54,643 bases of DNA from Candidatus Moraniibacteriota bacterium (GTDB lineage Bacteria; Patescibacteriota; Minisyncoccia; Moranbacterales; UBA2206): positions 1 to 54,643 of the forward strand of contig JAPLXG010000004.1 of assembly GCA_026396175.1 (NCBI GenBank). The letters are read 5' to 3'. Both the position numbers and the translations under genes were made by a program. This document shows, piece by piece, positions 2,257-39,412 of this stretch (positions are counted from its first letter, which is position 1; each line of letters opens with the position of its first letter). Under the pieces are notes generated by a model. The model did no database searches and was not told the DNA's origin. It saw nothing but the letters and a program-made list of their open reading frames with translations.

Positions 2257-2335
2257 AGACTTCACATCTCCGACCATGCAATGTTATTTTTTCCTTGCTG
2301 GTCGGTTTTTTTATTTTCCCAAAAACCTCCTCCCT

Positions 2336-2456
2336 TGTCATTCCCGCGCAGGCGGGAATCTAGTCTAAAAACTAAATTAACTAGACTGACCCAATGCTTG
2401 GATTAACTATTTTAACAAAAAATTTACACTGGATCCCCGCCTCCGCGGTGATGACA
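2336..2456. mobile_element. Family A empty element (REPIN/MITE-like, 121 bp)
   Basis: TGTCATTCCCGCGCAGGCGGGAATCTAGT ... ACTGGATCCCCGCCTCCGCGGTGATGACA. Confidence 0.8.
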
Positions 2457-2510
2457 TAAAAGGAAGGTTTTTATCTTGAAATTTGCATTTTACATTATAC
2501 ATAATACATT

Positions 2511-5523: not shown

Positions 5524-5713
5524 TGTCATTCCCGCAAAGGCGGGAATCCAGGTTCCACTAGTTATAAACTCTCGAAAATCGAATTGAGAATTCTCTAGCT
5601 TTATGTTTCAGTTAGCTTACTGCTTAATTAATTCGTATTATTTATTATCTATAGCCCGAGGTGCCTGGATCCCCGCCGGAGTTTATACTCGTGAAACGGG
5701 TGCGGGGATGACA
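5524..5713. mobile_element. Family A empty element (190 bp) with a secondary insert in its right arm, immediately upstream of uvrA
   Basis: TGTCATTCCCGCAAAGGCGGGAATCCAGG ... CCTGGATCCCCGCC[GGAGTTTATACTCGTGAAACGGG]TGCGGGGATGACA. Confidence 0.8.
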
Positions 5714-24020: not shown

Positions 24021-24044
24021 CCAATAATAAATCCTTCATCACTA

Positions 24045-24069
24045 AAAAAGAGCCGCGAGGCTCTTTTTT
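24045..24069. terminator. Bidirectional intrinsic terminator
   Basis: AAAAAAGAGCC-GCGA-GGCTCTTTTTT. Confidence 0.75.
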
Positions 24070-24113
24070 GTTATACTATGACGAAAAACTTAAGTAAACG
24101 CTGGAAAAACAAT

Positions 24114-24416
24114 TGTCATTCCCGCGCAGGCGGGAATCCAGTCACGCAATTAGCTTAAAATAGAGGTCGTCCCAGTTAGGATTATTTTGTTCGATAAGAT
24201 TTATTTTCCACGCTCTGTTCCATTTTTTGAGTGCTTTTTCCCTGGCAATAGCTACTAAATCCATCAGTAATCTTGGTTTTATGTTGCTGGATTCTTTTAA
24301 TTAAATCTGAGGTTACGCCGATGTATAGTGTCCCGTTTCTGTTACTAGCTAAAATATAGAGATAGTAGCTTTTCATTAAGTCTTTACACTAGATTCCCGC
24401 CTGCGCGGGAATGACA
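24114..24416 (-). pseudogene. Family A element with a GIY-YIG gene carrying a 56-bp internal deletion (frameshift)
   Basis: MKSYYLYILASNRNGTLYIGVT; identical to the 38862 copy over shared sequence but lacking its 39001-39056. Confidence 0.85.
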
Positions 24417-24433
24417 ATAATTTTTTGGATTTT

Positions 24434-25585
24434 TTACAAAACAAACCCCACTTTCTTTTTCACCTCATCCAATTTCTTTTTCGCGAGCGGCCTGACTTTT
24501 TTTGCTCCATCTTCTAAAATCTTCAAAACTTTTTCGTCAGACAACTCCCCCATTTTCTTTTGGAATGGCTCGAGAAATTTAATAATTATTTCTGCGAGTT
24601 CAGTCTTAAAGTCAGAATATTTCTTGCCAACAAGAAGTTTTTCGACTTCTTTCGGTGTCTTATTATCTAGGAGGCTATAGATATTAATCAAGTTTTTTAG
24701 CGCTGGCTTATCATCACTATAAACTATTTCGCTACCGGAATCCGTCACCGCTTTTTTGATTTTCCTGCGCACCGTTTCGGCGTCATCATTGAGAGCAATG
24801 TAGTTATATTCCGATTTGGCCGATTTGGACATTTTCTTGGTTGGATCATCGAGGCCCATAATGTTTTCGCTTTCTGGTTTTGTGTAGGCCTCAGGGATAA
24901 TGAAAGTTTCGCCGAATTTATGATTAAATCTTTGCGCTAATGTTCTAGCTAATTCAATATGTTGTTTTTGGTCTTTGCCGACCGGCACCACTTGCGTGTC
25001 ATATAAAATAATATCCGCAGCCATCAATACTGGATAATCGAAGAGGCCAACAGCTGATTTATTGAATGGCGCAAGAATTTCCTGCTTAAATTGATCCACT
25101 ATAGATTTGTATAACAAACTAACCTGCCTCGCTCTATCCATTTTGTTATACGCAACACTATCAACTTCAGGGAAATTTTTTCTTACATAATCCTCACTCA
25201 TTACATCACCCGATTCTATGAAGGTATTAAAATCTGATTGAATGCCTGTCTTGTCTTTGAACTGTGTCATTTTTGACAAATCACTATTCCTTGCAATCGT
25301 ATTTAAAATCCAACATAATTCAGCATGTTCAGAAACGTGCGACTGAATAAAAATAGCGCATTTCTTTGGGTCAATGCCCGCTGCTAAATAAATCTTCGCG
25401 ATTTCGATTGTACGTTTGCGCAAAACTTCCGGGTCTTGCGGAACGGTGATGGCGTGCATATCCACGACACAAAAAATTGAATCATACTCCTCTTGCAACT
25501 TGACCCAATTCTGGATTGCGCCGAGATAGTTTCCGATGTGAAGGTTGCCTGATGGCTGAATGCCGGAAAAAATTCGTTTTTTCAT
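24434..25585 (-). CDS. trpS: Tryptophan--tRNA ligase with a large internal insertion
   Basis: SGIQPSGNLHIGNY, YPVLMAADI, KMSKS. Confidence 0.96.
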   Translation of the reverse strand: MKKRIFSGIQPSGNLHIGNYLGAIQNWVKLQEEYDSIFCVVDMHAITVPQDPEVLRKRTIEIAKIYLAAGIDPKKCAIFIQSHVSEHAELCWILNTIARNSDLSKMTQFKDKTGIQSDFNTFIESGDVMSEDYVRKNFPEVDSVAYNKMDRARQVSLLYKSIVDQFKQEILAPFNKSAVGLFDYPVLMAADIILYDTQVVPVGKDQKQHIELARTLAQRFNHKFGETFIIPEAYTKPESENIMGLDDPTKKMSKSAKSEYNYIALNDDAETVRRKIKKAVTDSGSEIVYSDDKPALKNLINIYSLLDNKTPKEVEKLLVGKKYSDFKTELAEIIIKFLEPFQKKMGELSDEKVLKILEDGAKKVRPLAKKKLDEVKKKVGFVL

Positions 25586-25589
25586 AATA

Positions 25590-26582
25590 TTATTTGGTAA
25601 GCTTAAAAGTTTTAATGATGCCTTGGACTTCTTTCATCCTTGCTTCAATATCACTATCTTTGGCGTATTGAGCTTGCGCCCAGACGAAAACATAGGTTCC
25701 ATTTTCGCCGAGTAATTCCGGCACTGGACCGCCTTCGCTTTTGATCGCCTCCCACTGTTTTTTGGTGTGGAAACTGATATTGAAAAGCCCATCCGGTTGA
25801 GCGGGAAGACCAAAATCAATCGAATCGCTCTGCCCATCACTGCCCCAATCCAAAGTTCTGTTTGTCGCGTTATAGTCTTGCCAAGTAGCCGGGAAAGTCA
25901 GTTCAAATCCATATTTAGCATTTTTATAGACCTGAGTGGCAGTGGCCGCGCTATCGATTGGTTTTGTCAGCAATGATTGATAGACAGAAACTCCATCAAG
26001 CTTGATGCTATTTAACATTTCTCCGTCAACTTGGCAATCAAAAATACAAGCCGGCTGGAGACTGAAAGTCACTAAGGTTTTTAGCCCCTTAGAATAGGCA
26101 GCGTAGACTCGGAAACTTTCCAAATTGGCCACACTGACTTCAGGATTTTCCTTATCCACTGTCCAGGATATTTTATTGGGCAATGCTAAATTTTTGTATT
26201 TATCTTTTACATATTTTTCGGCGCTGATTTGATCGGAGCTAGCTACATAATAAATCGAAAGAATAGGATCGATGTAACTGCCATTAACACTCTCCCCTTC
26301 TTGCATCTGCCCGATAGACACAGTCTCTCCGTTTTTTGTCACAAATAAATCATGACAGGCGGCGGAGTCCTGGCAAATCTTGGCCGGGTACTCAAAACTA
26401 AAAGCCGTCCCATTGAAGGAAAAAGTTTTCCATTCGGCTTTTTTATCTACCTGAGCTTCCGGCGCCGGCTGTTCCACTACAGGCGCTGGTGTCGGTTGTG
26501 TCTGAACCACTTGCGACTGTCCACATCCCGCCAAGAAAATTATTCCCAAAAGTACCACACTTGTTTTAAGTATTTTTTGCAT
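25590..26582 (-). CDS. Putative lipoprotein (PsbP-like segments)
   Basis: Lipobox FLAGC; WKTF..FSFEYP and YKNAKYGFELTFP. Confidence 0.7.
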   Translation of the reverse strand: MQKILKTSVVLLGIIFLAGCGQSQVVQTQPTPAPVVEQPAPEAQVDKKAEWKTFSFNGTAFSFEYPAKICQDSAACHDLFVTKNGETVSIGQMQEGESVNGSYIDPILSIYYVASSDQISAEKYVKDKYKNLALPNKISWTVDKENPEVSVANLESFRVYAAYSKGLKTLVTFSLQPACIFDCQVDGEMLNSIKLDGVSVYQSLLTKPIDSAATATQVYKNAKYGFELTFPATWQDYNATNRTLDWGSDGQSDSIDFGLPAQPDGLFNISFHTKKQWEAIKSEGGPVPELLGENGTYVFVWAQAQYAKDSDIEARMKEVQGIIKTFKLTK

Positions 26583-26624
26583 AGTTTTTTTAAATAAATT
26601 ATTTAGCAATTTTATTTTTCTTCG

Positions 26625-26903
26625 CTACTTCCAATACTCGCGGAGCCACCGCATCGGACGATTTACCGCTCTTTCTCCCTCTTTTTGAACTACCGAGGAT
26701 TCCTCGGATGTTCGTTTTTCTTCCAATTCTCTTTCTGTGTAGATATTTTTTAGATGCAAAGCAACATTATCCACACTACAATCAAAAAGTTCCGCCATTT
26801 GCTTTTGTGAAAGCCACACTGTTTCACCATCAAAACGCACATCAATCTTAGTCTCGCCCGTTTCTGTTTTGTAGATAATTATTTGTGATTGCGGTTGTTT
26901 CAT
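26625..26903 (-). pseudogene. Truncated RhuM-family (virulence/DNA-binding) N-terminal fragment
   Basis: IIIYKTETGETKIDVRFDGETVWLSQKQMAELF...HLKNIY; stops after 92 aa. Confidence 0.7.
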
Positions 26904-26956
26904 AACTCCATTTTAGCCCATTTTCCCGTTTCAAGCAATTCTCGACACAGTCAAAG

Positions 26957-26985
26957 CAAAAGTCCCGCTCAGGCGGGGCTTTTGT
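26957..26985 (-). terminator. Terminator after rnj
   Basis: CAAAAGTCCCGC-TCAG-GCGGGGCTTTTG. Confidence 0.6.
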
Positions 26986-27042
26986 TTGAATATTATTTGT
27001 ACATTCGTATATTCGTACTAAATTCGTAATTCGTAGAGAAAT

Positions 27043-28860
27043 CTACACCTCAATAATCACCGGCAGAACCATCGGACGCCTTTGCGTTTGTTGGAAGAGG
27101 TAGAGTCCAACGACTTCGCGGATGTTGTCTTCGATGAATTTCTTTTCCGGTGAAGTTTTTTTCGATGTTGTGTCTTTGATTGCTTTTTGCACTCGCCTTT
27201 TGGTTTCATTGATCAGATCAAAATTATCTTTGACGTAGATGAAACCACGGGACGTGATTTGAATGTTTCCAACCACTTCTTTTTTCTTGCTGTCCAAAAT
27301 AACAGTGATGACAAACATACCGTCGGCACTGAGCACTTGGCGGTCACGAATGACCACCTGCCCCACGTCGCCCACGCCCAGTCCGTCCACCATAACGTAG
27401 CTTGTATCCACTTTTTTCGGTAACAGTTTTGCCTGGCCACGTTGCACTTCGAGTACATTGCCATTGTCCATAATGAAAATGTTTTCTTTGCGAAAACCAA
27501 TTCGCACAGCTAACTTTTCCGCTTCTTTTAGCATATAGTGATTGGCATAGACCGGCAGGAAAAAGTCCGGTCGCACTTGCCTGAGCATTTCTTGAATATC
27601 CACCGCACTGCAATGACCGCTGGTGTGCACATCCATCACGTCAGAGTGGATAACATTGTCGCACTTGCGATAGAGATTATCTTTCAAGCGTTGAATTGTT
27701 CTTTCATTGCCCGGAATGACCGAAGAGGAAAAAACAATTGTATCATTTTTTTTGACTTTGATGTGTCGGTGATTGTCGGTAATGATTCGAGAGAGCACAG
27801 CGTTACCTTCGCCTTGCGCGCCAGTGCAAACAATCACCACTTTGTTTTCCGGATATTTGTGCAAATCGTTGACGGAAATTAAAGTTTCTTTGTGCATTTT
27901 GATGTAGCCCAGTTCTTTGGCAATGTCGATATTCATTTTCATACTATAGCCATCCAGTGCCACTTTTTTGCCGATCTTTTCGGCGTATTCCAAGATATGA
28001 CCAACTCTTCTGATTTGCGAAGAGAATGTGCCGATGATGATTTTACCGGTCGCTTCACTGATCAGTTTTTCCAAGTTGTGATACATTTCATCTTCTGTCG
28101 TGCGTGAAGGATTGGTCACAATCGCGCCAAGACTTTCCAGCATCAAGATGCGTGGGCTTGGCAATTTGGCCAGATGATTGTAATTCACCAGACTTCCGCC
28201 ATGGGGAGTTTTTTCCATCGTCCAGTCGCCAGGATGAATGACGGTTCCATCCGGAGTTTTGAGAATCACGCCGACGGCGTCCATAATGGAATGCTCCACT
28301 TCAAAAAATTCAATTTCGAATTTTCCCAAACGCAATTTATCTTCCACACTTTTTATGCGGATTGTTTTTAAATTTTGCGCGGAACCTTTTTCAAAGTCTT
28401 CCAATTTTTTCTTGACCATCGCCAAGGTCATATCGCGCCCAATAATTGGCGGATAGCCGAGTTGACGCAAAAGGATTGGCGCGGCGCCGATGTGGTCCAA
28501 GTGACCATGACTCAAAATCACGCCCCGGATATTTTTTTCCTTGCCTTTGAGATAGCTGATGTTGGGAATGATGTAATCAATTCCCGGCATATCCTCTTCT
28601 GGAAATTGCAGACCCATGTCCAAAATGACAATATCCCCGCCATATTCAAACAGCGTCATATTGCGACCAACTTCTTCTTGGCCTCCCAGGGGGATGATTC
28701 TCAAGGCTCCCTTGGTGCTTCCCGAATTCATCTGCATCGGCATCGGGTTCCGATTAGTCTTGGGTTTTATCCTCGCGAGACCATCGAGGTTTCTGGGTAT
28801 CGTAAAGCTGTTTGGACGTGCCAAACCAGCCGGCGATACATTGGTTGTTTTTTTAAACAT
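27043..28860 (-). CDS. rnj: Ribonuclease J
   Basis: PLGGQEEVGRNM, SHGHLDHIG, GAQGE, HTSGH, RRPMVLPVIIEV. Confidence 0.95.
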   Translation of the reverse strand: MFKKTTNVSPAGLARPNSFTIPRNLDGLARIKPKTNRNPMPMQMNSGSTKGALRIIPLGGQEEVGRNMTLFEYGGDIVILDMGLQFPEEDMPGIDYIIPNISYLKGKEKNIRGVILSHGHLDHIGAAPILLRQLGYPPIIGRDMTLAMVKKKLEDFEKGSAQNLKTIRIKSVEDKLRLGKFEIEFFEVEHSIMDAVGVILKTPDGTVIHPGDWTMEKTPHGGSLVNYNHLAKLPSPRILMLESLGAIVTNPSRTTEDEMYHNLEKLISEATGKIIIGTFSSQIRRVGHILEYAEKIGKKVALDGYSMKMNIDIAKELGYIKMHKETLISVNDLHKYPENKVVIVCTGAQGEGNAVLSRIITDNHRHIKVKKNDTIVFSSSVIPGNERTIQRLKDNLYRKCDNVIHSDVMDVHTSGHCSAVDIQEMLRQVRPDFFLPVYANHYMLKEAEKLAVRIGFRKENIFIMDNGNVLEVQRGQAKLLPKKVDTSYVMVDGLGVGDVGQVVIRDRQVLSADGMFVITVILDSKKKEVVGNIQITSRGFIYVKDNFDLINETKRRVQKAIKDTTSKKTSPEKKFIEDNIREVVGLYLFQQTQRRPMVLPVIIEV

Positions 28861-29145
28861 ACTTTTCGAAAAAATAAAGATACCAAAAAAAAGTTGGTTA
28901 TCTCGAATAAAAGCGACTTCGCGCTTTTTCTAATTAAAGAAATTAAGATAATAAAAGAAATAGAATAAAATGACTAAAACAAAAGGTTTTCTTCCACTAC
29001 TGAAATTATATCATACTATTATACACGCATCAATGGATTTGTCAATAGCGGCTCATATTTTACTAATCCCCCCAACTGTTATATGCTTAAAACAGTTTAA
29101 TTTGTATATTTGTAAATTTGTACTAATTCGTAATTTGTAGACCTT

Positions 29146-30192
29146 ATGAAGATCGGAATTGTCGGCCTCCCGAACGTCGGAAAATCAACCCTGTTTAAGG
29201 CGCTGACCAAGACGCAAGTGGATATTAGCAATTATCCTTTTTGCACGATCGAACCTAATGTGGGAATCGTGAAGGTTCCCGATGAGCGCCTCGAAAAGCT
29301 CTCCGAGATGTCAACGTCGGAAAAAATCATTCCGGCCATCATCGAGTTTGTCGATATCGCCGGCATTGTGAAAGGCGCTTCGACTGGCGAAGGCTTGGGT
29401 AATAAATTTCTCTCAAATATCCGTGAAGTTGATGCCATCTGCCAAGTGGTGCGAGTTTTTGATAATTCGAATATTATTCATGTTAATAATAAAATTGATC
29501 CGGAAAGTGACATTGAGACAATCAACACTGAATTAATCTTGGCTGATTTGGAAACTATCCAAAAAGTGAAAATTCGCCTCGAGAAAGAAACGCATGGTAA
29601 TAAAAAAGGCGCCGCCGAACAACTGGCCGTGCTTAATCATATTAGGGAAAATCTTGAAGCTGGCCAAGTTGCCAACTCCACTAGCCTAGATTTTGAAGAC
29701 GAAAACACCAAAATTATCGTGCGCGAACTGTCACTGCTCACTATGAAACCGTTTTTATATATTTACAATGTTTCCGATGTGGCAGAAAAACTGCCAGAAA
29801 ATTTAGAAAAATTACCCCACGTCAAATTAGACGTTAAGATAGAAGAAGAGTTAATCGAAATGACAAAAGTTGAAGCAGAGGAGCTTGGCGTCAAATCAAA
29901 TCTAGACGAGCTCATTGTCCGTGCCTATGAACTTTTAGGACTAATCACGTTCCTAACTACCGGCAAAGATGAAACGCGCGCTTGGACAATCAAAAAGGGC
30001 TGGACGGCGCCACTGGCTGGCACTGCCATTCACAATGATTTCAAAGATAAATTCATCCGCGCCGAAGTAATCAACTGGCAAAAATTATTGGACGCCGGGT
30101 CGTGGTCGAAAGCGAAAGAGCTTGGGACACTCAGACTTGAAGGTAAGGAATATGTGGTGCAGGATGGGGATGTTGTAGAATTTAAGATATAA
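29146..30192 (+). CDS. ychF: Ribosome-binding ATPase YchF
   Basis: [33 protein letters not shown]. Confidence 0.97.
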
Positions 30193-30210
30193 CAAAAATG
30201 GGGATGCCTG

Positions 30211-30248
30211 CCCCGTGCAATCCGCCAGCTGGCGGAGATTTTACGGGG
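30211..30248. repeat. CCCCGT...ACGGGG hairpin with the nested family F palindrome TCCGCCAGCTGGCGGA (30221-30236)
   Basis: The same 16-mer lies in-frame in uvrC at 1029-1044. Confidence 0.7.
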
Positions 30249-30353
30249 TGATTGAATTTAAGATTTGATAGAGTGGACCATGATTTGATTTAGCATAATC
30301 CTCGAAAACATTCACAATGACACGAGGCTACTAAAAATAAAAACCAGCAAGAT

Positions 30354-30712
30354 TGTCATTCCCGCGAAGGCGGGAATCCAGTGTAAAAACTCAATGAAAA
30401 GCTACTATCTCTATATTTTAGCAAGCGAAAAAAACGGCACCCTATATATTGGAGTAACTTCAAACTTAATCAAAAGAATCCAAGAGCACAAAACCAAGAT
30501 TATAGATGGCTTTACTAAAGAATATGGCATAAGCAAGCTCGTGCACTACGAACAGACAGAAAATATTCATTCGGCTATTGCCAGAGAAAAAGCGCTGAAG
30601 AAATGGAATAGGGCGTGGAAAATAAAGCTCATCGAACAAAATAATCCTAACTGGGATGACCTCTATTTTAAGATAATTGCGTGACTAGATTCCCGCCTGC
30701 GCGGGAATGACA
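30354..30712 (+). mobile_element. Family A complete element (359 bp): palindromic arms flanking a GIY-YIG gene
   Basis: TGTCATTCCCGCGAAGGCGGGAATCCAGT ... ACTAGATTCCCGCCTGCGCGGGAATGACA. Confidence 0.85.
30394..30684 (+). CDS. Stand-alone GIY-YIG nuclease (96 aa)
   Basis: YYLYILAS..NGTLYIGVT..L..R...H, AIAREK.LKKW.R.WK, NPNWDDL. Confidence 0.92.
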   Translation: MKSYYLYILASEKNGTLYIGVTSNLIKRIQEHKTKIIDGFTKEYGISKLVHYEQTENIHSAIAREKALKKWNRAWKIKLIEQNNPNWDDLYFKIIA

Positions 30713-30779
30713 ATTATTATTTAATATTTAAACCTAAGTTTTCCGTCATAATAAAAAATAATTATATAACTATATTTCT

Positions 30780-31583
30780 ATGACAACAATCCACGCAATA
30801 ATTTTCGGCATCATCCAAGGTTTGGGAGAATTTTTGCCTATCTCCTCCTCGGCGCATTTAATTATCTTCCCCTGGCTTTTCAAGCTTCCTGACCCGGGCT
30901 TGTCTTTTGATGTTGCTCTGCATTTTGGTACGCTCATCGCAGTGGTGCTCTTTTTTTGGAAAGATTGGCTGAACATTATCGCACGCGCTTTTGGTTTTGG
31001 GGAAAAATTAAAATTATCTGCTGTTATAAATTATCCGAAAAATACGCTTTGGCTTTTGGTGATTGCCACAGTTCCCGGAGCAATCTTTGGATTTCTGTTT
31101 GAAAAACAAGCGGAAACAATTTTCCGCGCGCCTCTGCTCATTGCCGGCACGCTGACACTCGCCGGATTGGTTTTATATTGGCTAGACATTACCAGCAAAA
31201 AAGATCGGGATTTCACCAAAATTTCTCCTAAAAATGCCCTTCTCATCGGCCTTTCTCAAGCCGTTGCCATTATTCCGGGAATCTCTCGCTCCGGCGCCAC
31301 CATTTCCACCGGCCTCGCTTTAGGCTTCAACCGAACCAGCGCCGCCCGTTTTTCCTTTTTGATGTCCGCGCCAATAATTTTTGGCGCCACTATTTTGAAA
31401 TTCAAAGAACTTTTGCACAACTTCACCTCGGTCGAATTTGTAGCAATTCTTTCCGCCGCCATCACCGGCTACATTGCCATCGCCTGGATGCTAAAATTCA
31501 TCGAACGCATAAGCTACAAAATCTTTTTTTGGTACCGCCTGGCTTTTGCTTTGATTATTGTTTTGGTGTTTTTCTGGCGGTAA
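30780..31583 (+). CDS. uppP: Undecaprenyl-diphosphate phosphatase
   Basis: QGLGEFLPISSSAH, PGISRSGATI. Confidence 0.95.
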   Translation: MTTIHAIIFGIIQGLGEFLPISSSAHLIIFPWLFKLPDPGLSFDVALHFGTLIAVVLFFWKDWLNIIARAFGFGEKLKLSAVINYPKNTLWLLVIATVPGAIFGFLFEKQAETIFRAPLLIAGTLTLAGLVLYWLDITSKKDRDFTKISPKNALLIGLSQAVAIIPGISRSGATISTGLALGFNRTSAARFSFLMSAPIIFGATILKFKELLHNFTSVEFVAILSAAITGYIAIAWMLKFIERISYKIFFWYRLAFALIIVLVFFWR

Positions 31584-31605
31584 AATTATTATGTCGACAG
31601 CGGAG

Positions 31606-31655
31606 CAAAAATCGGAGCTCAACTCCGGAGCTCCGGAGTTGAGCTCCGATTTTTG
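31606..31655. repeat. Perfect 50-bp palindrome with no loop
   Basis: CAAAAATCGGAGCTCAACTCCGGAG|CTCCGGAGTTGAGCTCCGATTTTTG. Confidence 0.9.
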
Positions 31656-31816
31656 ATTTTTTTCAAACAAAAAAGACTGCCCAATGAAGGCAGCTTTTTT
31701 TATATACAAAAAGTTGAAATAATATTTATGGTATCTTGGGGTGCGTCGCTGCGCTCCCCAAGATTGCTACCAAGTCGATTGTCGATTGTCATTTAACTTT
31801 CAGGTTCGGAATATAC

Positions 31817-32524
31817 TTACACAAATAAAAGGGTTCCGGTTGAGGTTTCCGCATTCAGATTTTCTTCCATAGAGTGATTTAAGCCGCTGGCATTTGAGGC
31901 GAAAATCATAGCCCCCATTCCAAAGCCGGTATCCGTGGCAGCGCGTGAGGAGCCCAGGTCGGAAGAGCCGTTAATAAACGCAACACGTAGAGGAGCCCCC
32001 ATTGCCGGTTCGACCGTGACAACGCACAGGGCCTGGCCAATAGCGTTAAAGACATTTTCAGGAACCACCGCCTTGATATACGAGGTTGTCGTCTCAGGAG
32101 TGTTTGCCGCTTTACTTGAAAGAATCCATGCGCCGCTGGTATTGCCGTCGATGGTTGCCAGCGCTGCTGCTGATTTCGTATCCGTGTATTGATCTGCAAT
32201 AATGTACGTGGCGCCGATTACGGTCGGGGCTATGTCTTTTTTCATCGAGAAAATGGCTGTCGGGGCACTGGCTGTGTTGGCACCGTACAGTACGACTTCG
32301 GAAAAGGGTGCGGACGCATAAACCATGACGGCGCCCGGGAGGTATTGATTGAAACTGATTGTCGTAATATCACCACGAACGTCCGCCGAGTGAATCGCGA
32401 CTGCCTGCGTCTGATCATTGTTGAAATTCGTCGCCTGTGCTTGACCATTTGTCCCGAGTGTCATCAGCGCGAAGGCCACAAGTGCAATCAATAAAAACAT
32501 TTTTTGCTTCATGAACCGTTTCAT
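31817..32524 (-). CDS. Hypothetical secreted Ala/Thr-rich protein
   Basis: GAAAGGA before ATG 32524; signal-peptide-like N-terminus. Confidence 0.6.
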   Translation of the reverse strand: MKRFMKQKMFLLIALVAFALMTLGTNGQAQATNFNNDQTQAVAIHSADVRGDITTISFNQYLPGAVMVYASAPFSEVVLYGANTASAPTAIFSMKKDIAPTVIGATYIIADQYTDTKSAAALATIDGNTSGAWILSSKAANTPETTTSYIKAVVPENVFNAIGQALCVVTVEPAMGAPLRVAFINGSSDLGSSRAATDTGFGMGAMIFASNASGLNHSMEENLNAETSTGTLLFV

Positions 32525-32631
32525 AGACAAATTCCTTTCACATGATAGGTTGAAAAAACAATCGACTTGTGTAGGTACTACATCTAAATTAGCTTGCTGA
32601 GCGAAACTTGTCAAATCCAAGTCTAGGTAAA

Positions 32632-32677
32632 AAACAGAAGCTAAGCTTCGGGAGCTCCCGAAGCTTAGCTTCTGTTT
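32632..32677. repeat. Perfect 46-bp palindrome with no loop
   Basis: AAACAGAAGCTAAGCTTCGGGAG|CTCCCGAAGCTTAGCTTCTGTTT. Confidence 0.9.
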
Positions 32678-33048
32678 CAATCAGGTGTAATCAGGAAAAT
32701 CATGTGCTAACTTGTCTGCCGGCGAGGCAGATCAGTGGTCAAATTTGACTAATCCCCGATTATGCGTTAAGCTATAGAAACAATCTAGAAAGCCCCAAAG
32801 TTCTCTCGCCTGGCCACTCGCCAGGATAAGAGCACAAACATTCCGCACAGGGGCGATTCTGGGGCGGATTTTCGTTATTCGCTTCGCGAACCCCCACTAC
32901 CTGCCTACCGGCAGGCAGACGAAAGGGGAATATGCGAATGAATTTATATATAATTATTTTTAACAACGAATGATGCAGGTTTTCTGCAAATATATAACTA
33001 AGCTAATTTGTATATTTGTAAATTTGTATTTAATTCGTAATTTGTAGT

Positions 33049-33555
33049 ATGCGTTACGAACTATTCTATCTCGTCGGCGTTTCCAAGGAACTCGATCTGG
33101 AGAAAATTAAAGCTGAGGTGGACGAAATTGTCACCGGTCACTCGGGCGTTTTCGAAGAGAAAATGACTCAGGAGAAAAGAAAGATGGCCTACAAAATTAA
33201 AAAGGACACCCATGGCATCTATATTGCCAAGCGGTTTTCCACAGAGGAACCAGCTAATGTGCCGGAAATCATCAATAAGCTTAATTTGAATCCGGGAGTT
33301 TTGCGGTTCATCATTAGCGATGCGTCAGAATTGCCAGAGCTGAAAACCAAAGAAGAGCGCATTGAACAAGAAGAAAAAAGAGGCGAAGTAGAAAAAATGC
33401 GTGAAGCCAAAAAAGAAGCCGCGGAACTCGAGAAAAATCCACCGAAAAAAGAAGAAGTCGCTCCAGCCGCTCCAAAAACTGAAGCTGAAAAAATTCAACA
33501 AGCCCAAGATTCAGAGGCGATTGATAAAAAATTAGAAGAAATACTTAATATCTAG
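33049..33555 (+). CDS. rpsF: 30S ribosomal protein S6 with a charged C-terminal extension
   Basis: MRYELFY, KRKMAYKIKK, VLRFII; rpsF-ssb-rpsR synteny. Confidence 0.9.
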   Translation: MRYELFYLVGVSKELDLEKIKAEVDEIVTGHSGVFEEKMTQEKRKMAYKIKKDTHGIYIAKRFSTEEPANVPEIINKLNLNPGVLRFIISDASELPELKTKEERIEQEEKRGEVEKMREAKKEAAELEKNPPKKEEVAPAAPKTEAEKIQQAQDSEAIDKKLEEILNI

Positions 33556-33606
33556 TTTTTAATTATTTAAAACCCCTTAGTCGTACCGTCTTGCTTAGCC
33601 AGCGGG

Positions 33607-33642
33607 CCTGCCCGCAACGCTTCGCGTAGCGATGCGGGCGGG
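33607..33642. repeat. Family E palindrome in the ssb leader
   Basis: CCTGCCCGCAACGCTTCGCGTAGCGATGCGGGCGGG; 35/36 identical to 14395-14430 inside uvrB. Confidence 0.85.
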
Positions 33643-33654
33643 GAAAATAAACTT

Positions 33655-34137
33655 ATGAACATCAACAAAGTGATTCTCGTGGGAAGATTGACCCGAGATC
33701 CTGAAGTAAGAACGACAGCAACTGGACAAACCGTCACTTCAATCTCAATGGCGACTAACCGCTTTTGGAAAGATAAAAACGGACAAAAACAAGATCAAAC
33801 AGAATTTCACAATGTCGTACTTTGGGGAAAATTAGGAGAAATCGCCGGACAATATTTGACTAAAGGACAAGAGGCATATATTGAAGGAAGAATGTCTACG
33901 AGAAAATATACTGGAAAAGACGGACTCGAAAGACGCACAACAGAGGTGGTGGCAGAAAATATGCAACTCGGATCCCGCGCCGGACAAGGTGGCGTACAAG
34001 CAACGGGAACATACAACAGACCAGCCGCCGCTCCTGCTCAAGCCCAAGCTCCACAAGCACCGATGGTAGAAGAAATTCCCACCATCAATCTTGATGAAGA
34101 AGAAGATGAGGTGAGGATTGAGGATGTTCCCTTTTAG
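33655..34137 (+). CDS. ssb: Single-stranded DNA-binding protein
   Basis: NKVILVGRLTRDPE; C-terminal EDVPF. Confidence 0.97.
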   Translation: MNINKVILVGRLTRDPEVRTTATGQTVTSISMATNRFWKDKNGQKQDQTEFHNVVLWGKLGEIAGQYLTKGQEAYIEGRMSTRKYTGKDGLERRTTEVVAENMQLGSRAGQGGVQATGTYNRPAAAPAQAQAPQAPMVEEIPTINLDEEEDEVRIEDVPF

Positions 34138-34149
34138 GTTATTATAATT

Positions 34150-34346
34150 CCTCCTCTCCCTTAGGGAGAGCCTGCCTGCCGCCTGCCTGCCGGTAGGCAG
34201 GGTAGGCAGGGATGTCACGTACTCGTGACAGGTGAGGGAAAAGGGTTGAAAATTATAAGCAAACTAAATAAAATTAGTTTTTCTATATTATCAAGTCCCC
34301 TCCCTCATCCGCCCTTCGGGCACCTTCTCCCTAAGGGAGAAGGGGT
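34150..34346. repeat. Family B doublet carrying a doubly nested family D insert (34171-34210)
   Basis: Inverted arms CCTCTCCCTTAGGGAGAG...GGTGAGGG and CCCTCATCCG...CCTTCTCCCTAAGGGAGAAGGGG. Confidence 0.85.
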
Positions 34347-34380
34347 AATTCGTTTAATTTGTAATTAAGTAATTTAAAGT

Positions 34381-34623
34381 ATGTATAACAATCGCAACAG
34401 CAATGAAATCAGTGTAGTGGAGAAAAAACTCTGTCACTTTTGCCAAAATCGAATTGAGAAAATCGATTTCAAGGATGCCTATTTCATCCGTCGTTTTATG
34501 AATTCTCAAGGCAAAATCTATCCACCAAAACGCCACGGCACTTGCACCAAGCACCAAAGAATTCTTACCAACGCCATCAAAAAAGCCCGCGTTATGGCGC
34601 TTGTGCCTTTTGTGGCGAGATAA
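34381..34623 (+). CDS. rpsR: 30S ribosomal protein S18 (zinc-binding type)
   Basis: CHFC, IDFKD, GTCTKHQR...IKKARVMALVPF. Confidence 0.95.
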   Translation: MYNNRNSNEISVVEKKLCHFCQNRIEKIDFKDAYFIRRFMNSQGKIYPPKRHGTCTKHQRILTNAIKKARVMALVPFVAR

Positions 34624-34630
34624 TAAATAT

Positions 34631-34781
34631 CCCCTTCTCCCTTAGGGAGAAGGTGGCTGAAAGCCGGATGAGGGAGGGAACTTTCAATAATCCACATTCC
34701 ACTGATTAGAAAGATTTTCCTTCCTACTTAGCCCTTTCCCTCACCTGTCCTCCGGACATCCTCTCCCTAAGGGAGAAGAGG
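34631..34781. repeat. Family B doublet (151 bp)
   Basis: CCCCTTCTCCCTTAGGGAGAAGGTGGC...GGATGAGGG ... CCCTCACCTGTC...CCTCTCCCTAAGGGAGAAGAGG. Confidence 0.85.
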
Positions 34782-34825
34782 CTTGTTCATTTGATTTCTA
34801 ACCTACTAAAAAATAAAACTATCTT

Positions 34826-35383
34826 ATGATTGGAATTTCCGATATTAAAACTGGGAAAAATATAATTTTGAATGGTATGCCGTTTGCTGTTCTGTATCAC
34901 GAACATTCTAAAACCGGCCGCGCCGGATCAGTTTTGCGCACACGACTGAAAAATCTGACCAACGGCGCAGTGCTGGAAAAAACTTTTCAAGGTTCTGAAC
35001 ACGTTGAAGAAGCACAGATCACCAAATCAAAAGCGCAGTTTCTCTATAAGGAAAATACGGATTATTGTTTTATGGATAATGAATCCTATGAACAATTTTC
35101 TCTTTTGACAGAAACACTAGGTGATAATGTTGACTATCTGACTGAAGGCACGGAAGTTTTATTTCTAAATTTCGACGGCGTTGCCATCAACATTGAACTG
35201 CCGGTCAAAATGAAATTGAAAGTCACTGAAGCGCCACCAGGCATCAAGGGCAACACCGTTTCCACCGGCGGAAAAATGGTCACGCTGGAAACCGGCAAAA
35301 AAATCTCCACTCCCCTTTTCGTGGAAGCCGGAGATGAGATTATCGTCAACACGGAAAAAGGGGAATATGTTAGTCGAGCATAG
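34826..35383 (+). CDS. efp: Elongation factor P
   Basis: HSKTGRAGS loop, PPGIKGNT, NTEKGEYVSRA. Confidence 0.95.
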   Translation: MIGISDIKTGKNIILNGMPFAVLYHEHSKTGRAGSVLRTRLKNLTNGAVLEKTFQGSEHVEEAQITKSKAQFLYKENTDYCFMDNESYEQFSLLTETLGDNVDYLTEGTEVLFLNFDGVAINIELPVKMKLKVTEAPPGIKGNTVSTGGKMVTLETGKKISTPLFVEAGDEIIVNTEKGEYVSRA

Positions 35384-35402
35384 AATTTAGAATGATTTGT
35401 GC

Positions 35403-35473
35403 GTAGAGACGCAATTCATTGCGTCTAGAAACCTCGCAATCATAACCCAAGACGCGATAAATCGCATCTCTAC
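35403..35473. repeat. Family G GTAG-type REP doublet
   Basis: GTAGAGACGCAATTCATTGCGTCT ... AGACGCGATAAATCGCATCTCTAC. Confidence 0.8.
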
Positions 35474-35526
35474 AACAACATGTTATTTTACAAAATACTT
35501 TTAGGGGAGTTAAAAAAGGAGGCCAT

Positions 35527-35751
35527 ATGCCCATCGCAACGGAAGCTACTAAATTCGTTTGTCCTGAGTGCCATACGCAGGCAGTAAGGGATGAAAAGAC
35601 TGGTCAGCTGTCTTGTTCTAAGTGCAAAATTCAACCCACTACTTTCATTGGATCGGGATACAATCTTTTCACAGCTGGATTTGACGAGGAAATGAAATTT
35701 CCTGAAGATTTTCCGTTTAATCCAAAATATTATCGCCATCAAGATTTTTGA
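35527..35751 (+). CDS. Small zinc-ribbon protein
   Basis: AAGGAGG SD; CPEC...CSKC. Confidence 0.7.
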   Translation: MPIATEATKFVCPECHTQAVRDEKTGQLSCSKCKIQPTTFIGSGYNLFTAGFDEEMKFPEDFPFNPKYYRHQDF

Positions 35752-35830
35752 TTTCGAAACCACTCCCCAAGGGGAACTGTGAATTACAGCTCCCCTCCCC
35801 TAAAAGTATTTGGCGAAATTTTCCATTTAG

Positions 35831-35962
35831 GCAGGAGCGGGTTTGAAACCCGCTCCTTTTAGTTTACTAACTGCAAATTTTATCAAACGCACTCTAAATA
35901 AAAATCCATCCAAAAAAAATAAATAGTAAACTATGCGAAACGGGTTATAAACCCGTTCCTGC
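35831..35962. repeat. Family J GCAG-type REP doublet
   Basis: GCAGGAGCGGGTTTGAAACCCGCTCC ... AACGGGTTATAAACCCGTTCCTGC. Confidence 0.75.
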
Positions 35963-36013
35963 GTTAATGACAAATTTTTTTGCCAACGCCCAAAAAAATG
36001 CTAGACTAGGTTT

Positions 36014-36457
36014 ATGGGCACACTAGCAATCAACAAAAAGGCGGGTTTGGACTATTTCCTCGAAGATCTTTACGAGGCTGGTTTGGTTTTGAATGGGCAA
36101 GAGGTGAAATCGGTCAGATCGGGGCAAGTTAGCCTCAAGGAAAGCTTTGTGACACTCAAGGGCACGGAGCTATACCTTACCAACGCCTATATCGCCCCCT
36201 ACAAACAAGCGGGTTTGAAGCAAATCAACGACCCAACCCGACCCCGGAAGCTCCTTTTGAAAAAGTCAGAAATCCGCCAATTGATTGGAAAAGTACGCAC
36301 GGAAGGCTTGACATTAGTGCCACTTCGGTTGTATACTAAGAAACGACTATTAAAGCTGGCTTTTGCCGTGGGAAAAGGCAAAAAGAAGTTCGATAAGCGC
36401 GAAGATATCGCCAAAAGAGAGGCGAAACGGAGTATCGACCGAGCTTTAAAAAGTTAA
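36014..36457 (+). CDS. smpB: SsrA-binding protein
   Basis: EAGLVLNGQEVKSVR, PTRPRKLLL, GKGKKKFDKRE. Confidence 0.96.
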   Translation: MGTLAINKKAGLDYFLEDLYEAGLVLNGQEVKSVRSGQVSLKESFVTLKGTELYLTNAYIAPYKQAGLKQINDPTRPRKLLLKKSEIRQLIGKVRTEGLTLVPLRLYTKKRLLKLAFAVGKGKKKFDKREDIAKREAKRSIDRALKS

Positions 36458-36669
36458 GAATTTTTAATTTTATAATTTTTGAATTTTTAAATAATGTCCC
36501 AATTTTTGAATGTTTAAAAATTGAGTCATTTAAAATTATTTCAAAAATTACCTGCCTGCCGGTAGGCAGGAAAATTAAAAAATTAAAAATTTCCTTCCAA
36601 TCTTCACTACAGTCAGATTTCTCCACTTATATTACTTTACTGCCCAGTCTATCAGTAAGCAATATAGTT

Positions 36670-37227
36670 GGGGATGCCTGGTTTCGACAGGTTGTACGTT
36701 TAAAATATGCAAGCCGAGCTCTTATGGCTGCTCGTTTATCCCCCACCACTTTTTTACTCGCACTTTGTGCGCGAGAGATAGTTTACTAATTTATCATCAG
36801 TAAGTTAATAAAAAACGACTTACATGCAAGATAATTTCAAAAAGTAGAAAAGTGGTGGGGGATGAAAAACCGCTATTAAAGTTATAAGTGCAAACTTACT
36901 AACAAAAGCAAAAACTGCGATTGCTGAGGCTTTCACAGTCAACTTTGCTACCGCTCTTGCCTAATACTAGCCTTTACTAGTTAGGGCATAAGCCATCGAA
37001 TTTATTTTCGCCCAAGGGGTAAATTTCGGTGTCATATTATTGGGCTAGCTTTTGGCACTTTTCTTGGCTGCCACTTGCGAAATCAATGCCGAGAATAGAT
37101 TGAGAAGGTTTTGTTCGCCTTTCACTTTTCGATCGACCCCGCCTCGTGTGGGAACCAAGGCGAAATAAGCTTGTAGTATATTTTAGATGAATAATTTTGG
37201 ACGCGAGTTCAACTCTCGCCATCTCCA
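36670..37227 (+). ncRNA. ssrA: tmRNA (558 nt including a 132-nt insert); tag frame 36890-36964 reads ANLLTKAKTAIAEAFTVNFATALA
   Basis: 5' GGGGATG pairs with 3' CATCTCC-A including the G3-U wobble; GGTTTCGAC; T-arm GCGAGTTCAACTCTCGC; adjacent to smpB; CCA not encoded. Confidence 0.92.
36735..36866. repeat. Family C element inside the tmRNA
   Basis: TTTATCCCCCACCACTTTT ... AAAAGTGGTGGGGGATGAA. Confidence 0.9.
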
Positions 37228-37236
37228 CGTGCAGCT

Positions 37237-38853: not shown

Positions 38854-38861
38854 TATTTTTT

Positions 38862-39139
38862 TGTCATTCCCGCGCAGGCGGGAATCCAGTCACGCAATTA
38901 GCTTAAAATAGAGGTCGTCCCAGTTAGGATTATTTTGTTCGATAAGATTTATTTTCCACGCTCTGTTCCATTTTTTGAGTGCTTTTTCCCTGGCAATAGC
39001 TGAATGAATATTTTCAGTTTGTTCATAATGAACTAATTTTCTAACATCATACTTTTTACTAAATCCATCAGTAATCTTGGTTTTATGTTGCTGGATTCTT
39101 TTAATTAAATCTGAGGTTACGCCGATCGCGGGAATGACA
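38862..39139 (-). pseudogene. Family A element with a GIY-YIG gene lacking 81 bp (start codon, N-terminal motif and half of one arm)
   Basis: Identical to the 24114 copy over shared sequence; lacks its 24323-24403. Confidence 0.85.
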
Positions 39140-39208
39140 ATCTTATTTATTTTATTTTTAGTAGCGCTGTGCCATTGTGAATGTTTTTGAGGATGATACA
39201 CGAAGATG

Positions 39209-39409: not shown

Positions 39410-39412
39410 AGT

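What the first reader, a model, noticed from the sequence alone, without database searches (positions are those of the whole stretch)
30354..30712. Candidate new mobile system: a 359-bp GIY-YIG cassette bounded by palindromic arms, with empty derivatives
Seen: a 96-aa GIY-YIG gene fills the space between two inverted ~29-bp arms, each itself a hairpin (ATTCCC-N8-GGGAAT). Its stop codon overlaps the right arm. Two more copies (24114, 38862) reconstruct to exactly 359 bp and a paralogue differing at 12 of 96 residues. Three copies keep the arms around unrelated AT-rich filler (2336-2456, 5524-5713, 16075-16249). No transposase or obvious target duplication is visible. Known: this autonomous/non-autonomous layout mirrors RAYT-REPIN systems, which use an HUH transposase. 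The arm matches the Neisseria dRS3 consensus ATTCCCN8GGGAAT. Inference: the GIY-YIG nuclease may be the enzyme that propagates this repeat family.
Basis: partly seen in the sequence, partly recalled or inferred. Interest (0 to 1): 0.85.

Follow-up and report, generated by a model that had tools for sequence, protein, structure and literature searches.

The report
Ssn nuclease gene with hairpin arms
This small nuclease gene flanked by two mirror-image DNA hairpins belongs to the Ssn/NTS family described in 2025, and in this tiny-genome bacterium the gene-plus-hairpins unit seems to have copied itself recently into new sites.

Summary
A 96-aa single-domain GIY-YIG gene (30394-30684) lies between inverted 31-nt arms. 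Each arm is a DNA hairpin that matches ATTCCC-N8-GGGAAT.

The system is not new. Chenal et al. 2025 (PMC11893778) described the Ssn family: small GIY-YIG nucleases that bind this hairpin (NTS, which contains dRS3) in single-stranded DNA and cut just upstream of it. Their genes are typically flanked by the hairpin on both sides. That paper already draws the IS and RAYT/REP analogy. The window's arm matches the 28-nt NTS consensus at 27 positions. This scan has also met Ssn hairpins before on other DNA.

- The two "truncated" copies are probably assembly artefacts. Public runs hold the intact 359-nt form as one contig, at 1.3-3x the depth of its neighbours.
- That second cassette type sits at three sites. 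One site is empty, with alignable flanks, in four congeners.
- The ychF-uppP site of the intact gene is empty in five congeners.
- The "filler" elements are old and diverged. One type is a deletion derivative of a sister species' cassette.
- RAYT genes in this genome carry their own repeats.

Mobility is supported by comparison. The mechanism is unproven, and no consistent target duplication was seen.

The parts
30352..30382 (+). 5'-side arm: NTS-type hairpin (TGTCAT tag, ATTCCCGC-GAAG-GCGGGAAT stem-loop, ATCCAG tail), read in the NTS sense on the + strand
   Evidence: It matches 27 of 28 positions of the NTS consensus CGTCATTCCCGCGMAVGCGGGAATCYRG quoted in PMC11893778.
30394..30684 (+). ssnA-like gene, type I: a 96-aa single-domain GIY-YIG nuclease
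   Evidence: Y7, Y18, R28, H32, E65 and N84 are conserved in 34-36 of 36 homologues from arm-flanked cassettes.
30684..30714 (-). 3'-side arm: the same hairpin, read in the NTS sense on the - strand (tags outward, 'head-to-head' dimer)
30295..30342 (+). 48-nt stretch just outside the 5' arm, shared at 88% with 39150-39197 beside another cassette; only these two copies exist in the genome
   Evidence: (pair I8)
24112..24418 (-). Type II ssnA cassette, site B; the internal 55-nt gap in the assembly is probably an artefact
   Evidence: the relative G007 has a gene-less element in this intergenic region
38861..39141 (-). Type II ssnA cassette, site A (between the rplT terminator and a 72-aa gene); the missing 5' part in the assembly is probably an artefact
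2335..2458 (.). Gene-less arm pair, type C (about 120 bp)
   Evidence: 61-79% identity to the other type C copies
5524..5713 (.). Gene-less arm pair, type B; the right arm carries an enlarged loop
16075..16249 (.). Gene-less arm pair that keeps a remnant of the cassette's 3' end next to its left arm
   Evidence: (pair I6: 59 nt, 86% complementary to 30664-30722)

Best explanation
This is an ssnA-type cassette. It encodes a 96-aa, single-domain GIY-YIG endonuclease of the Ssn family, bracketed by two inverted copies of its cognate DNA hairpin (NTS/dRS3 type, also called CGTC-tagged REP; here tagged TGTC).

By homology with the characterised Neisseria, Wolbachia and other enzymes, the protein should bind the hairpin only when the DNA is single-stranded, and nick that strand a few nucleotides 5' of the tag. 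Because the two arms face outward, that places one nick just outside the left end on the top strand and one just outside the right end on the bottom strand.

In this genome (Moranbacteria, CPR, according to earlier notes of this scan) the arm-bounded unit of about 360 bp behaves as a selfish, copy-number-increasing cassette. One type is present in about three identical copies at unrelated sites. One of those sites is empty in four congeners. Gene-less arm pairs are old deletion derivatives.

My best guess for the mechanism: nicks made by Ssn in transiently single-stranded DNA (at replication forks or in incoming DNA) start repair or copy synthesis that duplicates the unit into new AT-rich intergenic spots, or into resident arm pairs, without a fixed target duplication.

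Status of each step:
- Shown here: anatomy, copy number, insertion polymorphism, and arms that change together with the protein.
- Shown in print for relatives: binding and cutting of ssDNA.
- Inferred: that this protein does the same, and that its cuts drive the copying.

My odds: member of the Ssn family about 0.9; cassette is or recently was mobile about 0.65; moved by its own nuclease about 0.4.
For: Identity
- GIY-YIG domain, 96 aa, no second domain.
- The arms match NTS at 27 of 28 positions.
- In 40 relatives, the 16 homologues of 41-83% identity that were fetched (L002-L017) almost all have TGTCAT-hairpin-ATC upstream and its inverse downstream. The stem sequence changes from clade to clade.
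- Exact arm pairs spaced 290-320 nt occur in at least 120 stretches of many phyla. Of the 80 fetched, 52 hold a full-length homologue (52-82% identity), 5 hold fragments and 23 hold none.
- Catalytic-type residues are conserved.
- 28 synonymous against 12 non-synonymous codon differences between the two paralogues indicate purifying selection.

Enzyme activity of relatives
- PMC11893778, sections 8 and 10.

Mobility
- The 359-nt type II unit is a single contig at 1.3-3x neighbour depth in 4 of 4 runs.
- It sits at three sites whose similarity ends at ATTGTCA...TGACAAT.
- Site C (C10:54756-55042) is empty, with alignable flanks, in G011, G007, G003 and G004.
- The ychF-uppP site is empty in G007, G009, G003, G005 and G013, and carries a different ssn cassette in G001 and G011.
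- Site A is empty in 7 of 13 congeners.
- Co-occurrence: 15 of 16 relatives with an Ssn-clade homologue (E<=1e-22) have at least one arm, against 7 of 25 without one.

Other enzymes
- The three RAYT-like genes of this genome are each flanked by their own palindromes, not by these arms.
- G008 (30 arms) and G004 (18 arms) gave no Y1_Tnp match.
- No IS110 DEDD domain was found in the 5 genomes searched.
Against: - No activity of this protein was tested.
- GIY-YIG nucleases hydrolyse DNA and are not known to rejoin it, so the enzyme alone cannot complete a transposition.
- No consistent target-site duplication was found: TTAT is possible at site C only.
- G007 has 41 arms but no Ssn-clade gene in a 97%-complete assembly; its GIY-YIG genes are of the tRNA-associated kind, without these arms.
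- The gene-less elements are old: 58-82% identity in G000 and 64-83% in G007. There is no sign that the nuclease mobilises them in trans now.
- No contig in the 4 runs skipped a whole cassette among the joints listed. Contigs drop rare variants, and 63 joints were not shown.
- All relatives compared are different species, about 80% nt identity in genes. Loss cannot be formally told from gain at sites A and B or at the ychF-uppP site.
- A 48-nt stretch outside the arm travelled with the cassette at least once, which fits recombination better than precise end-to-end transposition.
- Kin are not independent, so the co-occurrence counts overstate the association.
Confidence: 0.6

Rival explanations
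1. Domesticated host function. The nuclease restricts or tunes incoming single-stranded DNA during natural transformation or DNA uptake, as shown for Neisseria. The hairpins are its genomic target and regulatory sites. Extra copies arise by ordinary duplication and homologous recombination between hairpins, not by self-mobilisation.
For: - Chenal et al. showed that SsnA lowers integration of NTS-gene-NTS donor DNA, and they proposed domestication.
- The protein is under purifying selection.
- Arms persist in a genome without the gene (G007).
- At sites A and B a relative has another arm-bounded element in the same intergenic region, so recombination between arms could swap interiors.
- A 48-nt flank was co-copied.
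Against: - Site C has no arms in the four congeners with alignable flanks. The unit entered a naive site, and its similarity to the other copies ends exactly at the arms.
- About three identical copies in a 0.98-Mb streamlined genome are hard to explain as host need.
- Multi-copy cassettes also occur in at least one other genome: three hits in one alphaproteobacterial chromosome. None of those three holds an ssn homologue by tblastn.
Confidence: 0.28
2. The arms and cassettes are moved by another enzyme encoded elsewhere (a RAYT-type HUH transposase, an IS110/Piv recombinase as for the Neisseria phage that targets dRS3, or a phage or plasmid function). The GIY-YIG gene is a passenger.
For: - G000 does encode three RAYT-like proteins.
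- G007, with the most arms, has two Y1_Tnp matches and no Ssn-clade gene.
- Di Nocera et al. 2013 left open that CGTC REPs might use RAYTs or other transposases (PMC3733652, passages read).
Against: - Each RAYT-like gene of G000 is flanked by a different palindrome of its own.
- G008 (30 arms; 83% complete) and G004 (18 arms) gave no Y1_Tnp match.
- 0 of 5 genomes gave an IS110 DEDD match.
- Arms change together with the Ssn clade across relatives.
- Published enzymes of the family cut next to exactly this hairpin.
Confidence: 0.07
3. Classical free-standing GIY-YIG homing endonuclease. The enzyme makes a double-strand break in the empty allele, and the gene is copied in by repair from a filled allele.
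For: - GIY-YIG fold; weak sub-threshold match to the group I intron endonuclease model (TIGR01453, 21 bits against a cut-off of 56).
- No target duplication, as expected for homing.
Against: - The protein has no DNA-binding domain beyond the 96-aa catalytic domain.
- Characterised family members do not cut dsDNA at all.
- The three insertion sites share no common sequence.
- The recognised sequence lies in the element itself, not in the empty site.
Confidence: 0.05

Closest known systems
Ssn nucleases with NTS / Ssn-related motifs (SsnA of Neisseria meningitidis; Chenal et al., Nat Commun 2025, PMC11893778)
   Same: - Single-domain GIY-YIG protein of about 95 aa.
- The gene is flanked on both sides by inverted hairpins with an outward tag.
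- The hairpin is ATTCCCGCG-loop-CGCGGGAAT with the tail ATCYRG, 27 of 28 positions of the NTS consensus.
- Gene-less hairpin pairs are scattered in intergenic DNA.
- Homologues in other genomes carry co-varying hairpins.
   Different: - The tag is TGTC instead of CGTC.
- The host is an ultra-small CPR bacterium with only about 20 arms, not hundreds.
- Two diverged paralogues with the same arm type are present, and one of them is in about three identical copies.
- Insertion polymorphism against congeners is seen here; the paper (main text as read) does not report it. Its supplements could not be opened and may list multi-copy or CPR cases.
- No biochemistry exists for this protein.
CGTC-tagged REPs, family CGTC-1 = Neisseria dRS3, Rickettsia RPE-6 (Di Nocera et al., BMC Genomics 2013, PMC3733652)
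   Same: 8-9 bp stem, 4-5 nt loop, 3-nt tail, mostly head-to-head dimers with 20-100 bp spacers, and intergenic location downstream of genes.
   Different: [quoted passage not shown] Here, and in Chenal 2025, the spacer of some dimers is the ssn gene.
RAYT / REP (REPIN) systems of the IS200/IS605 superfamily
   Same: Works alike in outline. One gene is flanked by inverted hairpin repeats that also occur as gene-less doublets, the enzyme acts on hairpins in ssDNA, and there is no target duplication. True RAYT-REP pairs coexist in this same genome.
   Different: The enzyme is a GIY-YIG hydrolase, not an HUH tyrosine transposase, so it forms no covalent intermediate with which to rejoin DNA. The repeats carry a TGTC/CGTC tag, not GTAG. 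The gene-bearing unit is multi-copy here, whereas RAYTs are usually single-copy.
Free-standing GIY-YIG homing endonucleases (phage T4 Seg proteins, I-TevI type)
   Same: GIY-YIG catalytic fold; a selfish small gene that spreads without a transposase.
   Different: No separate DNA-binding domain, no dsDNA cleavage in characterised relatives, and the recognised site flanks the gene instead of lying in the empty allele.

Membership tests
Ssn family (Chenal et al. 2025) | Single-domain GIY-YIG protein of about 90-100 aa (under 150 aa) | tested here: met
   96-aa ORF. PF01541 covers residues 4-77, E=5e-14; the only other match is the overlapping T5orf172.
Ssn family (Chenal et al. 2025) | Gene flanked on both the 5' and 3' sides (within 500 bp) by NTS / Ssn-related hairpin motifs | tested here: met
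   Arms lie 12 nt upstream of the ATG and overlap the stop codon by 1 nt. They match 27 of 28 positions of the NTS consensus quoted in the paper.
Ssn family (Chenal et al. 2025) | GIY-YIG catalytic residues (the paper inactivated Y6, Y17 and E64 of the Neisseria enzyme) | tested here: met
   Y7, Y18, R28, H32, E65 and N84 are conserved in 34-36 of 36 cassette-encoded homologues. Equating them with Y6/Y17/E64 is by position only, because no Neisseria sequence was at hand.
Ssn family (Chenal et al. 2025) | [quoted passage not shown] | not testable with these tools
   CDD is not among the libraries. No Neisseria locus was among the 80 fetched. The PDB sequence search gave 0 hits.
Ssn family (Chenal et al. 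2025) | Site-specific cleavage of ssDNA a few nucleotides upstream of the hairpin; no cleavage of dsDNA, RNA or the reverse strand | not testable with these tools
   Needs biochemistry. Only the ssDNA hairpin fold was computed.
Ssn family (Chenal et al. 2025) | Homologues in other genomes carry their own matching hairpins | tested here: met
   The 16 fetched homologues L002-L017. 52 of 80 exact arm pairs from many phyla enclose a full-length homologue.
RAYT / REPIN system | HUH (Y1) tyrosine transposase between the repeats | tested here: not met
   The enclosed protein is GIY-YIG. The genome's Y1_Tnp genes lie elsewhere, with other palindromes.
Insertion sequence / MITE (classical) | Terminal inverted repeats, a target-site duplication and a transposase | tested here: not met
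   Inverted ends are present. No consistent duplication was found at 4 cassettes and about 12 gene-less elements. No DDE, HUH or serine/tyrosine recombinase lies inside.
Mobile element in the broad sense | The same bounded unit at unrelated sites, and filled versus empty orthologous sites | tested here: met
   Three type II sites whose similarity ends at the arms. Site C is empty in 4 congeners. The ychF-uppP site is empty in 5. Gain versus loss is not formally polarised.
GIY-YIG homing endonuclease | Catalytic domain joined to a DNA-binding domain; cuts the double-stranded empty allele | tested here: not met
   No extra domain in 96 aa. TIGR01453 scores 21 bits against a cut-off of 56. The dsDNA assay is not testable here.
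Neisseria dRS3 repeat | 20-bp palindrome ATTCCC-N8-GGGAAT | tested here: met
   8 exact sites in the window and 21 in the genome.

The most novel reading that the evidence does not exclude
The arm-bounded ssnA unit is an autonomous mobile element of a kind not yet demonstrated. Its own hydrolytic, ssDNA-specific GIY-YIG nuclease nicks just outside each hairpin arm in transiently single-stranded DNA, and host replication or repair then copies the unit into new sites and into resident arm pairs. No transposase, covalent intermediate or target duplication is involved. The three identical copies here, one in a site empty in four congeners, would be the footprint of recent activity.
Probability: 0.35. 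Interest if true: 0.8.

Novelty: new member of a known kind. Interest (0 to 1): 0.4.

Why it matters
The enzyme-hairpin pairing is published, so its presence here is ordinary. The value of this locus lies in the question the 2025 paper left open: whether NTS-ssnA-NTS is or was a mobile element, and what spreads dRS3/CGTC-type repeats.

This small genome offers an unusually clean natural case:
- few arms;
- two paralogous cassettes, one in about three identical copies;
- a naive insertion site with empty orthologues;
- old gene-less derivatives;
- true RAYT-REP systems alongside, as an internal control.

It also warns that short-read genomes assembled from metagenomes (MAGs) mis-assemble such cassettes into false "decayed" copies.

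Tried and rejected
1. My first mismatch search for the arm used a mis-spaced pattern and found only a chance hit. I dropped it.

2. PDB sequence search with the protein: 0 hits at E<=0.01, so no solved relative by sequence.

3. Population-level empty sites. Contigs of 4 public runs were laid on 22000-40500. No listed joint skipped a whole cassette. The short joints at 24141-24394 are other arm pairs with different interiors. Contigs cannot show rare variants, and 63 joints were not displayed, so this says nothing either way.

4. Strain-level relatives. A metagenome scan with the 72-aa neighbour of site A gave 8 loci. The best (97% aa) is still only about 80% identical in DNA, so no near-identical empty site was obtained.

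5. Arm-mediated interior swap at sites A and B. G007 has a gene-less type B element in the same intergenic regions, but the junctions lie at different distances from the upstream terminator. I cannot tell a swap from independent insertion.

6. A 4-bp TTAT duplication at site C is not reproduced at the other two type II sites. I treat it as AT-rich coincidence.

7. Direct comparison with the Neisseria protein was not possible. None of the 80 loci fetched was from Neisseria, and I did not type a sequence from memory.

8. Folding the whole 363-nt unit exceeded the tool's size limit. Only the arms were folded.

9. Only one paper in the library holds both 'GIY-YIG' and 'dRS3'. I found no paper there that demonstrates transposition of an ssn cassette.

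Full report
WHAT IS THERE

The window is contig C6 of a 975,679-bp, 16-contig, about 41% G+C assembly. Earlier notes of this scan call it a Moranbacteria (CPR) genome. I did not verify that name independently. The closest named cassette homologue I fetched (82% aa) is from a 'Candidatus Moraniibacteriota' MAG, and the runs that hold the DNA are freshwater metagenomes.

At 30394-30684 there is a 96-aa ORF with a GIY-YIG domain (PF01541, E=5e-14) and no room for a second domain. It lies between two inverted 31-nt arms, 30352-30382 and 30684-30714. Each arm contains ATTCCC-N8-GGGAAT. That motif has 8 exact copies in the window against none in 100 shuffles. Each arm folds as single-stranded DNA into an 8-bp stem with a 4-nt loop (-8.9 kcal/mol, z about -4.2 to -4.7). 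The leader between the arm and the ATG is 12 nt. The stop codon overlaps the right arm by one base.

IT IS A KNOWN SYSTEM

One paper in the library holds both 'GIY-YIG' and 'dRS3': Chenal et al., Nat Commun 2025 (PMC11893778). I read its abstract and sections 7, 8, 10 and 12. Its main points:
- It defines the 28-nt NTS, CGTCATTCCCGCGMAVGCGGGAATCYRG, which contains dRS3.
- The 94-aa GIY-YIG protein SsnA of N. meningitidis, and homologues from three other species, bind this hairpin only in ssDNA. They cut that strand a few nucleotides upstream, and do not cut the reverse strand, dsDNA or RNA.
- 42% of homologues have such motifs on both sides of the gene.

The window's arm, TGTCATTCCCGCGAAGGCGGGAATCCAG, matches the NTS consensus at 27 of 28 positions; the first C is a T. 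Di Nocera et al. 2013 (PMC3733652, passages read) had classed dRS3 as 'CGTC-1' REPs. They described them as mostly head-to-head dimers and concluded that they 'apparently lack a dedicated transposase'.

This scan has also met Ssn hairpins before on other DNA.

- Among 40 relatives, 32 have a GIY-YIG match. The 16 fetched homologues of 41-83% identity almost all show TGTCAT-hairpin-ATC upstream and the inverse downstream. Their stem sequences differ between clades, for example ATTCCCGCG, ATCCTGAGCG and ATTGCGAGCG.
They came from many phyla: Alpha-, Beta-, Gamma- and Deltaproteobacteria, Rickettsia, Chloroflexota, Planctomycetota, Nitrospirota, and Patescibacteria including Moraniibacteriota, Paceibacterota and Saccharibacteria.
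- Of the 80 loci fetched from that scan, 52 enclose a full-length homologue (52-82% identity), 5 enclose fragments and 23 enclose nothing similar.
- Y7, Y18, R28, H32, E65 and N84 are conserved in 34-36 of 36 of these proteins. By position they correspond to the Y6, Y17 and E64 that the paper mutated.
- CDD cd10448 and a direct comparison with the Neisseria protein could not be tested.

CENSUS IN THE GENOME

The genome has 21 dRS3 sites and 13 strict 27-nt NTS matches.

Gene-bearing units with these arms:
- the intact type I unit (30352-30714, 363 bp with its ATT/AAT ends);
- three type II units at window 24112-24418, window 38861-39141 and C10:54756-55042.

Two further paralogues (C9:16466-16744 and C16:74709-74987; 51-56% identity) carry a different arm type, TTGTCATCCTGAGCG....

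Gene-less arm pairs fall into several groups:
- type B: C6:5524, C7:80709, C13:2875, C14:11030, C15:92904;
- type C: C6:2335, C8:18111, C7:16396 and two on C16;
- an 80-bp minimal pair: C7:117778;
- 16075-16249, which keeps a remnant of the gene's 3' end.

A type B element aligns to the first 69 nt (arm plus leader, up to the start codon) and to the last 64 nt (81% identity; from the end of the ORF to the end of the arm) of the ssn cassette of the sister species G009. It is a true deletion derivative of a cassette type that G000 no longer holds in gene-bearing form.

These gene-less elements are old. Pairwise identity is 58-82% for type B and 61-79% for type C in G000, and 64-83% for four copies in G007.

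THE 'DECAYED' COPIES ARE PROBABLY ASSEMBLY ARTEFACTS

Contigs of four public runs from three studies were laid on 22000-40500. In every run, one 356-359-nt contig runs from 38863-39056 straight into 24253-24417.

Depth of that contig against its single-copy neighbours:

| Run | 359-nt contig | Neighbours |
|---|---|---|
| X2 | 44.5 | about 14-16 |
| X5 | 15 | about 6-7 |
| X8 | 11.7 | about 6-12 |
| X7 | 13.7 | about 4-8 |

Flanking contigs end in the arms. The reconstruction is 359 nt and 84.7% identical to type I. It encodes 96 aa with 12 differences from type I, from 28 synonymous and 12 non-synonymous codon changes. The genome therefore most likely holds about three intact, identical type II genes plus one type I gene, both under purifying selection.

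EVIDENCE FOR MOBILITY

The window is collinear with G007:C1:125-167 kb at about 80% nt identity.

- **Site C (C10).** The cassette lies between two genes whose flanks align in G011, G007, G003 and G004. All four lack the whole arm-bounded unit and have no arms there. This is a clean filled-versus-empty comparison at a naive site.
- **ychF-uppP site (type I).** The gene pair is adjacent in 9 genomes of the genus. The spacer is 17-20 bp in G005 and G013 and 150-180 bp without arms in G003, G007 and G009. It holds a different ssn cassette (53% aa, other arms) in G001 and G011, and an unrelated 1.1-kb insert in G004.
- **Site A (38861-39141, after the rplT terminator).**
  - Arm-bearing elements of different kinds occupy it in G000 (ssnA), in G007 and two metagenome loci (type B), and in G006 and G010 (short pair). 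G001 keeps an arm remnant.
  - It is empty in G008, G011, G009, G004, G013, G012 and G002.
  - G003 holds an unrelated repeat there, and in G005 the sequence downstream of rplT differs.
- **Site B (24112-24418).** G007 has a type B element. G005 and G012 are empty.

Similarity among the three type II copies ends exactly at ATTGCA-type ends, namely ATTGTCA...TGACAAT.

There is no consistent target duplication. A 48-nt stretch just outside the 5' arm is shared (88%) by the type I unit and the type II unit at site A, and occurs nowhere else in the genome. At least one copying event therefore took flanking DNA along.

CO-OCCURRENCE AND RIVAL ENZYMES

The tagged arm (GTC-dRS3-C) occurs in 22 of 41 genomes. 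It is present in 15 of 16 genomes with an Ssn-clade homologue (E<=1e-22) and in 7 of 25 without one. These genomes are kin, so the contrast is overstated.

The main exception is G007. It has 41 arms, and its GIY-YIG genes are of the tRNA-associated kind, without these arms. Its elements are old, which fits relics left after loss of the gene. It equally shows that arms can persist without the gene.

G000 has three RAYT-like genes, each flanked by its own palindrome. G008 (30 arms; 83% complete) and G004 (18 arms) gave no Y1_Tnp match. None of the 5 genomes gave an IS110 DEDD match.

HOW IT MOST LIKELY WORKS

Published for relatives: hairpin recognition in ssDNA and a nick about 3 nt 5' of the tag.

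With the arms facing outward, this places one nick at each outer boundary of the unit, on opposite strands. That is within a base or so of where the copies stop being alike. This is an inference.

A hydrolytic GIY-YIG enzyme cannot rejoin DNA, so copying must rely on host replication or repair. That would explain three observations: the lack of a target duplication, the occasional co-copied flank, and different interiors between like arms at the same site.

I put membership of the Ssn family at about 0.9, mobility of the cassette at about 0.65, and self-mobilisation at about 0.4. The main rival is a domesticated ssDNA-restriction role, as in Neisseria, with copies made by ordinary recombination.

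VERDICT

The feature is real and is a new member of a known kind. The 'new mobile system' claim is not new. The comparative evidence for recent insertion goes beyond what I read in the paper. The paper's supplements could not be opened and may bear on this.

Noticed in passing
window 7941-8091, 9652-9799, 17306-17455, 19584-19733, 36735-36881, 39413-39562; gene-bearing copy at G000 C11:3691-3986: A second, different GIY-YIG cassette and miniature-element system. It has non-hairpin terminal inverted repeats (ATCCCC[CT]ACCAC...), with 53 arm hits in the genome forming 23 convergent pairs. Of these, 22 pairs are 70-136 bp long and gene-less. Exactly one, 296 bp long, encloses an 84-aa GIY-YIG gene.
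   Followed up: partly
G000 C13:24013-24252, C9:4010-4246, C15:82351-82593 (outside the window): Three paralogous RAYT-like (Y1_Tnp) genes of 167-183 aa, each flanked by its own distinct palindromic repeat. True RAYT-REP systems therefore coexist with the Ssn-hairpin systems in a genome under 1 Mb.
   Followed up: partly
G000 C7:70556-70759, C16:59516-59725, C10:42738-42938, C14:61838-62056 (outside the window): Small GIY-YIG genes of 81-90 aa nested among partial tRNA gene copies. Earlier notes of this scan on the same genome describe the same thing.
   Followed up: partly
window 30193-30779 and the orthologous spacers in L022-L029: The ychF-uppP spacer is a hot spot. Within one genus it ranges from 17 bp to about 1.2 kb, and holds two different ssn cassettes, other palindromic repeats, AT-rich repeats or an unrelated gene.
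   Followed up: yes
window 24252/24253, 39126/39127; G000 C10 about 54920 (NNNNN): The assembly seems to have mis-joined or collapsed a three-copy 359-nt repeat, which creates false internal deletions and a truncated ORF (38890-39201, 103 aa). Public-run contigs show the intact form.
   Followed up: yes
window 3-122, 34140-34380, 34617-34782, 37941-38116, 44005-44210: Further GC-rich composite palindromic repeat families (CCCTCACCTGTCACG..., CTCTCCCTAAGGGAGAG, GCCTGCCTGCCGGTAGGCAGG). Related repeats fill the ychF-uppP spacer of G007 and site A of G003.
   Followed up: no
window 52379-54386: Long direct repeats near the window's end: two tandem 276-nt units (53304-53855, 78% identity) and three 128-nt units. 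They probably lie in a repeat-rich coding region.
   Followed up: no
L092, L118, L122 (one alphaproteobacterial chromosome, OZ241350.1): Three separate exact arm pairs of cassette size lie in one chromosome of another phylum. None of the three holds an ssn homologue by tblastn, so cassette-sized arm pairs without the gene can also be multi-copy.
   Followed up: no
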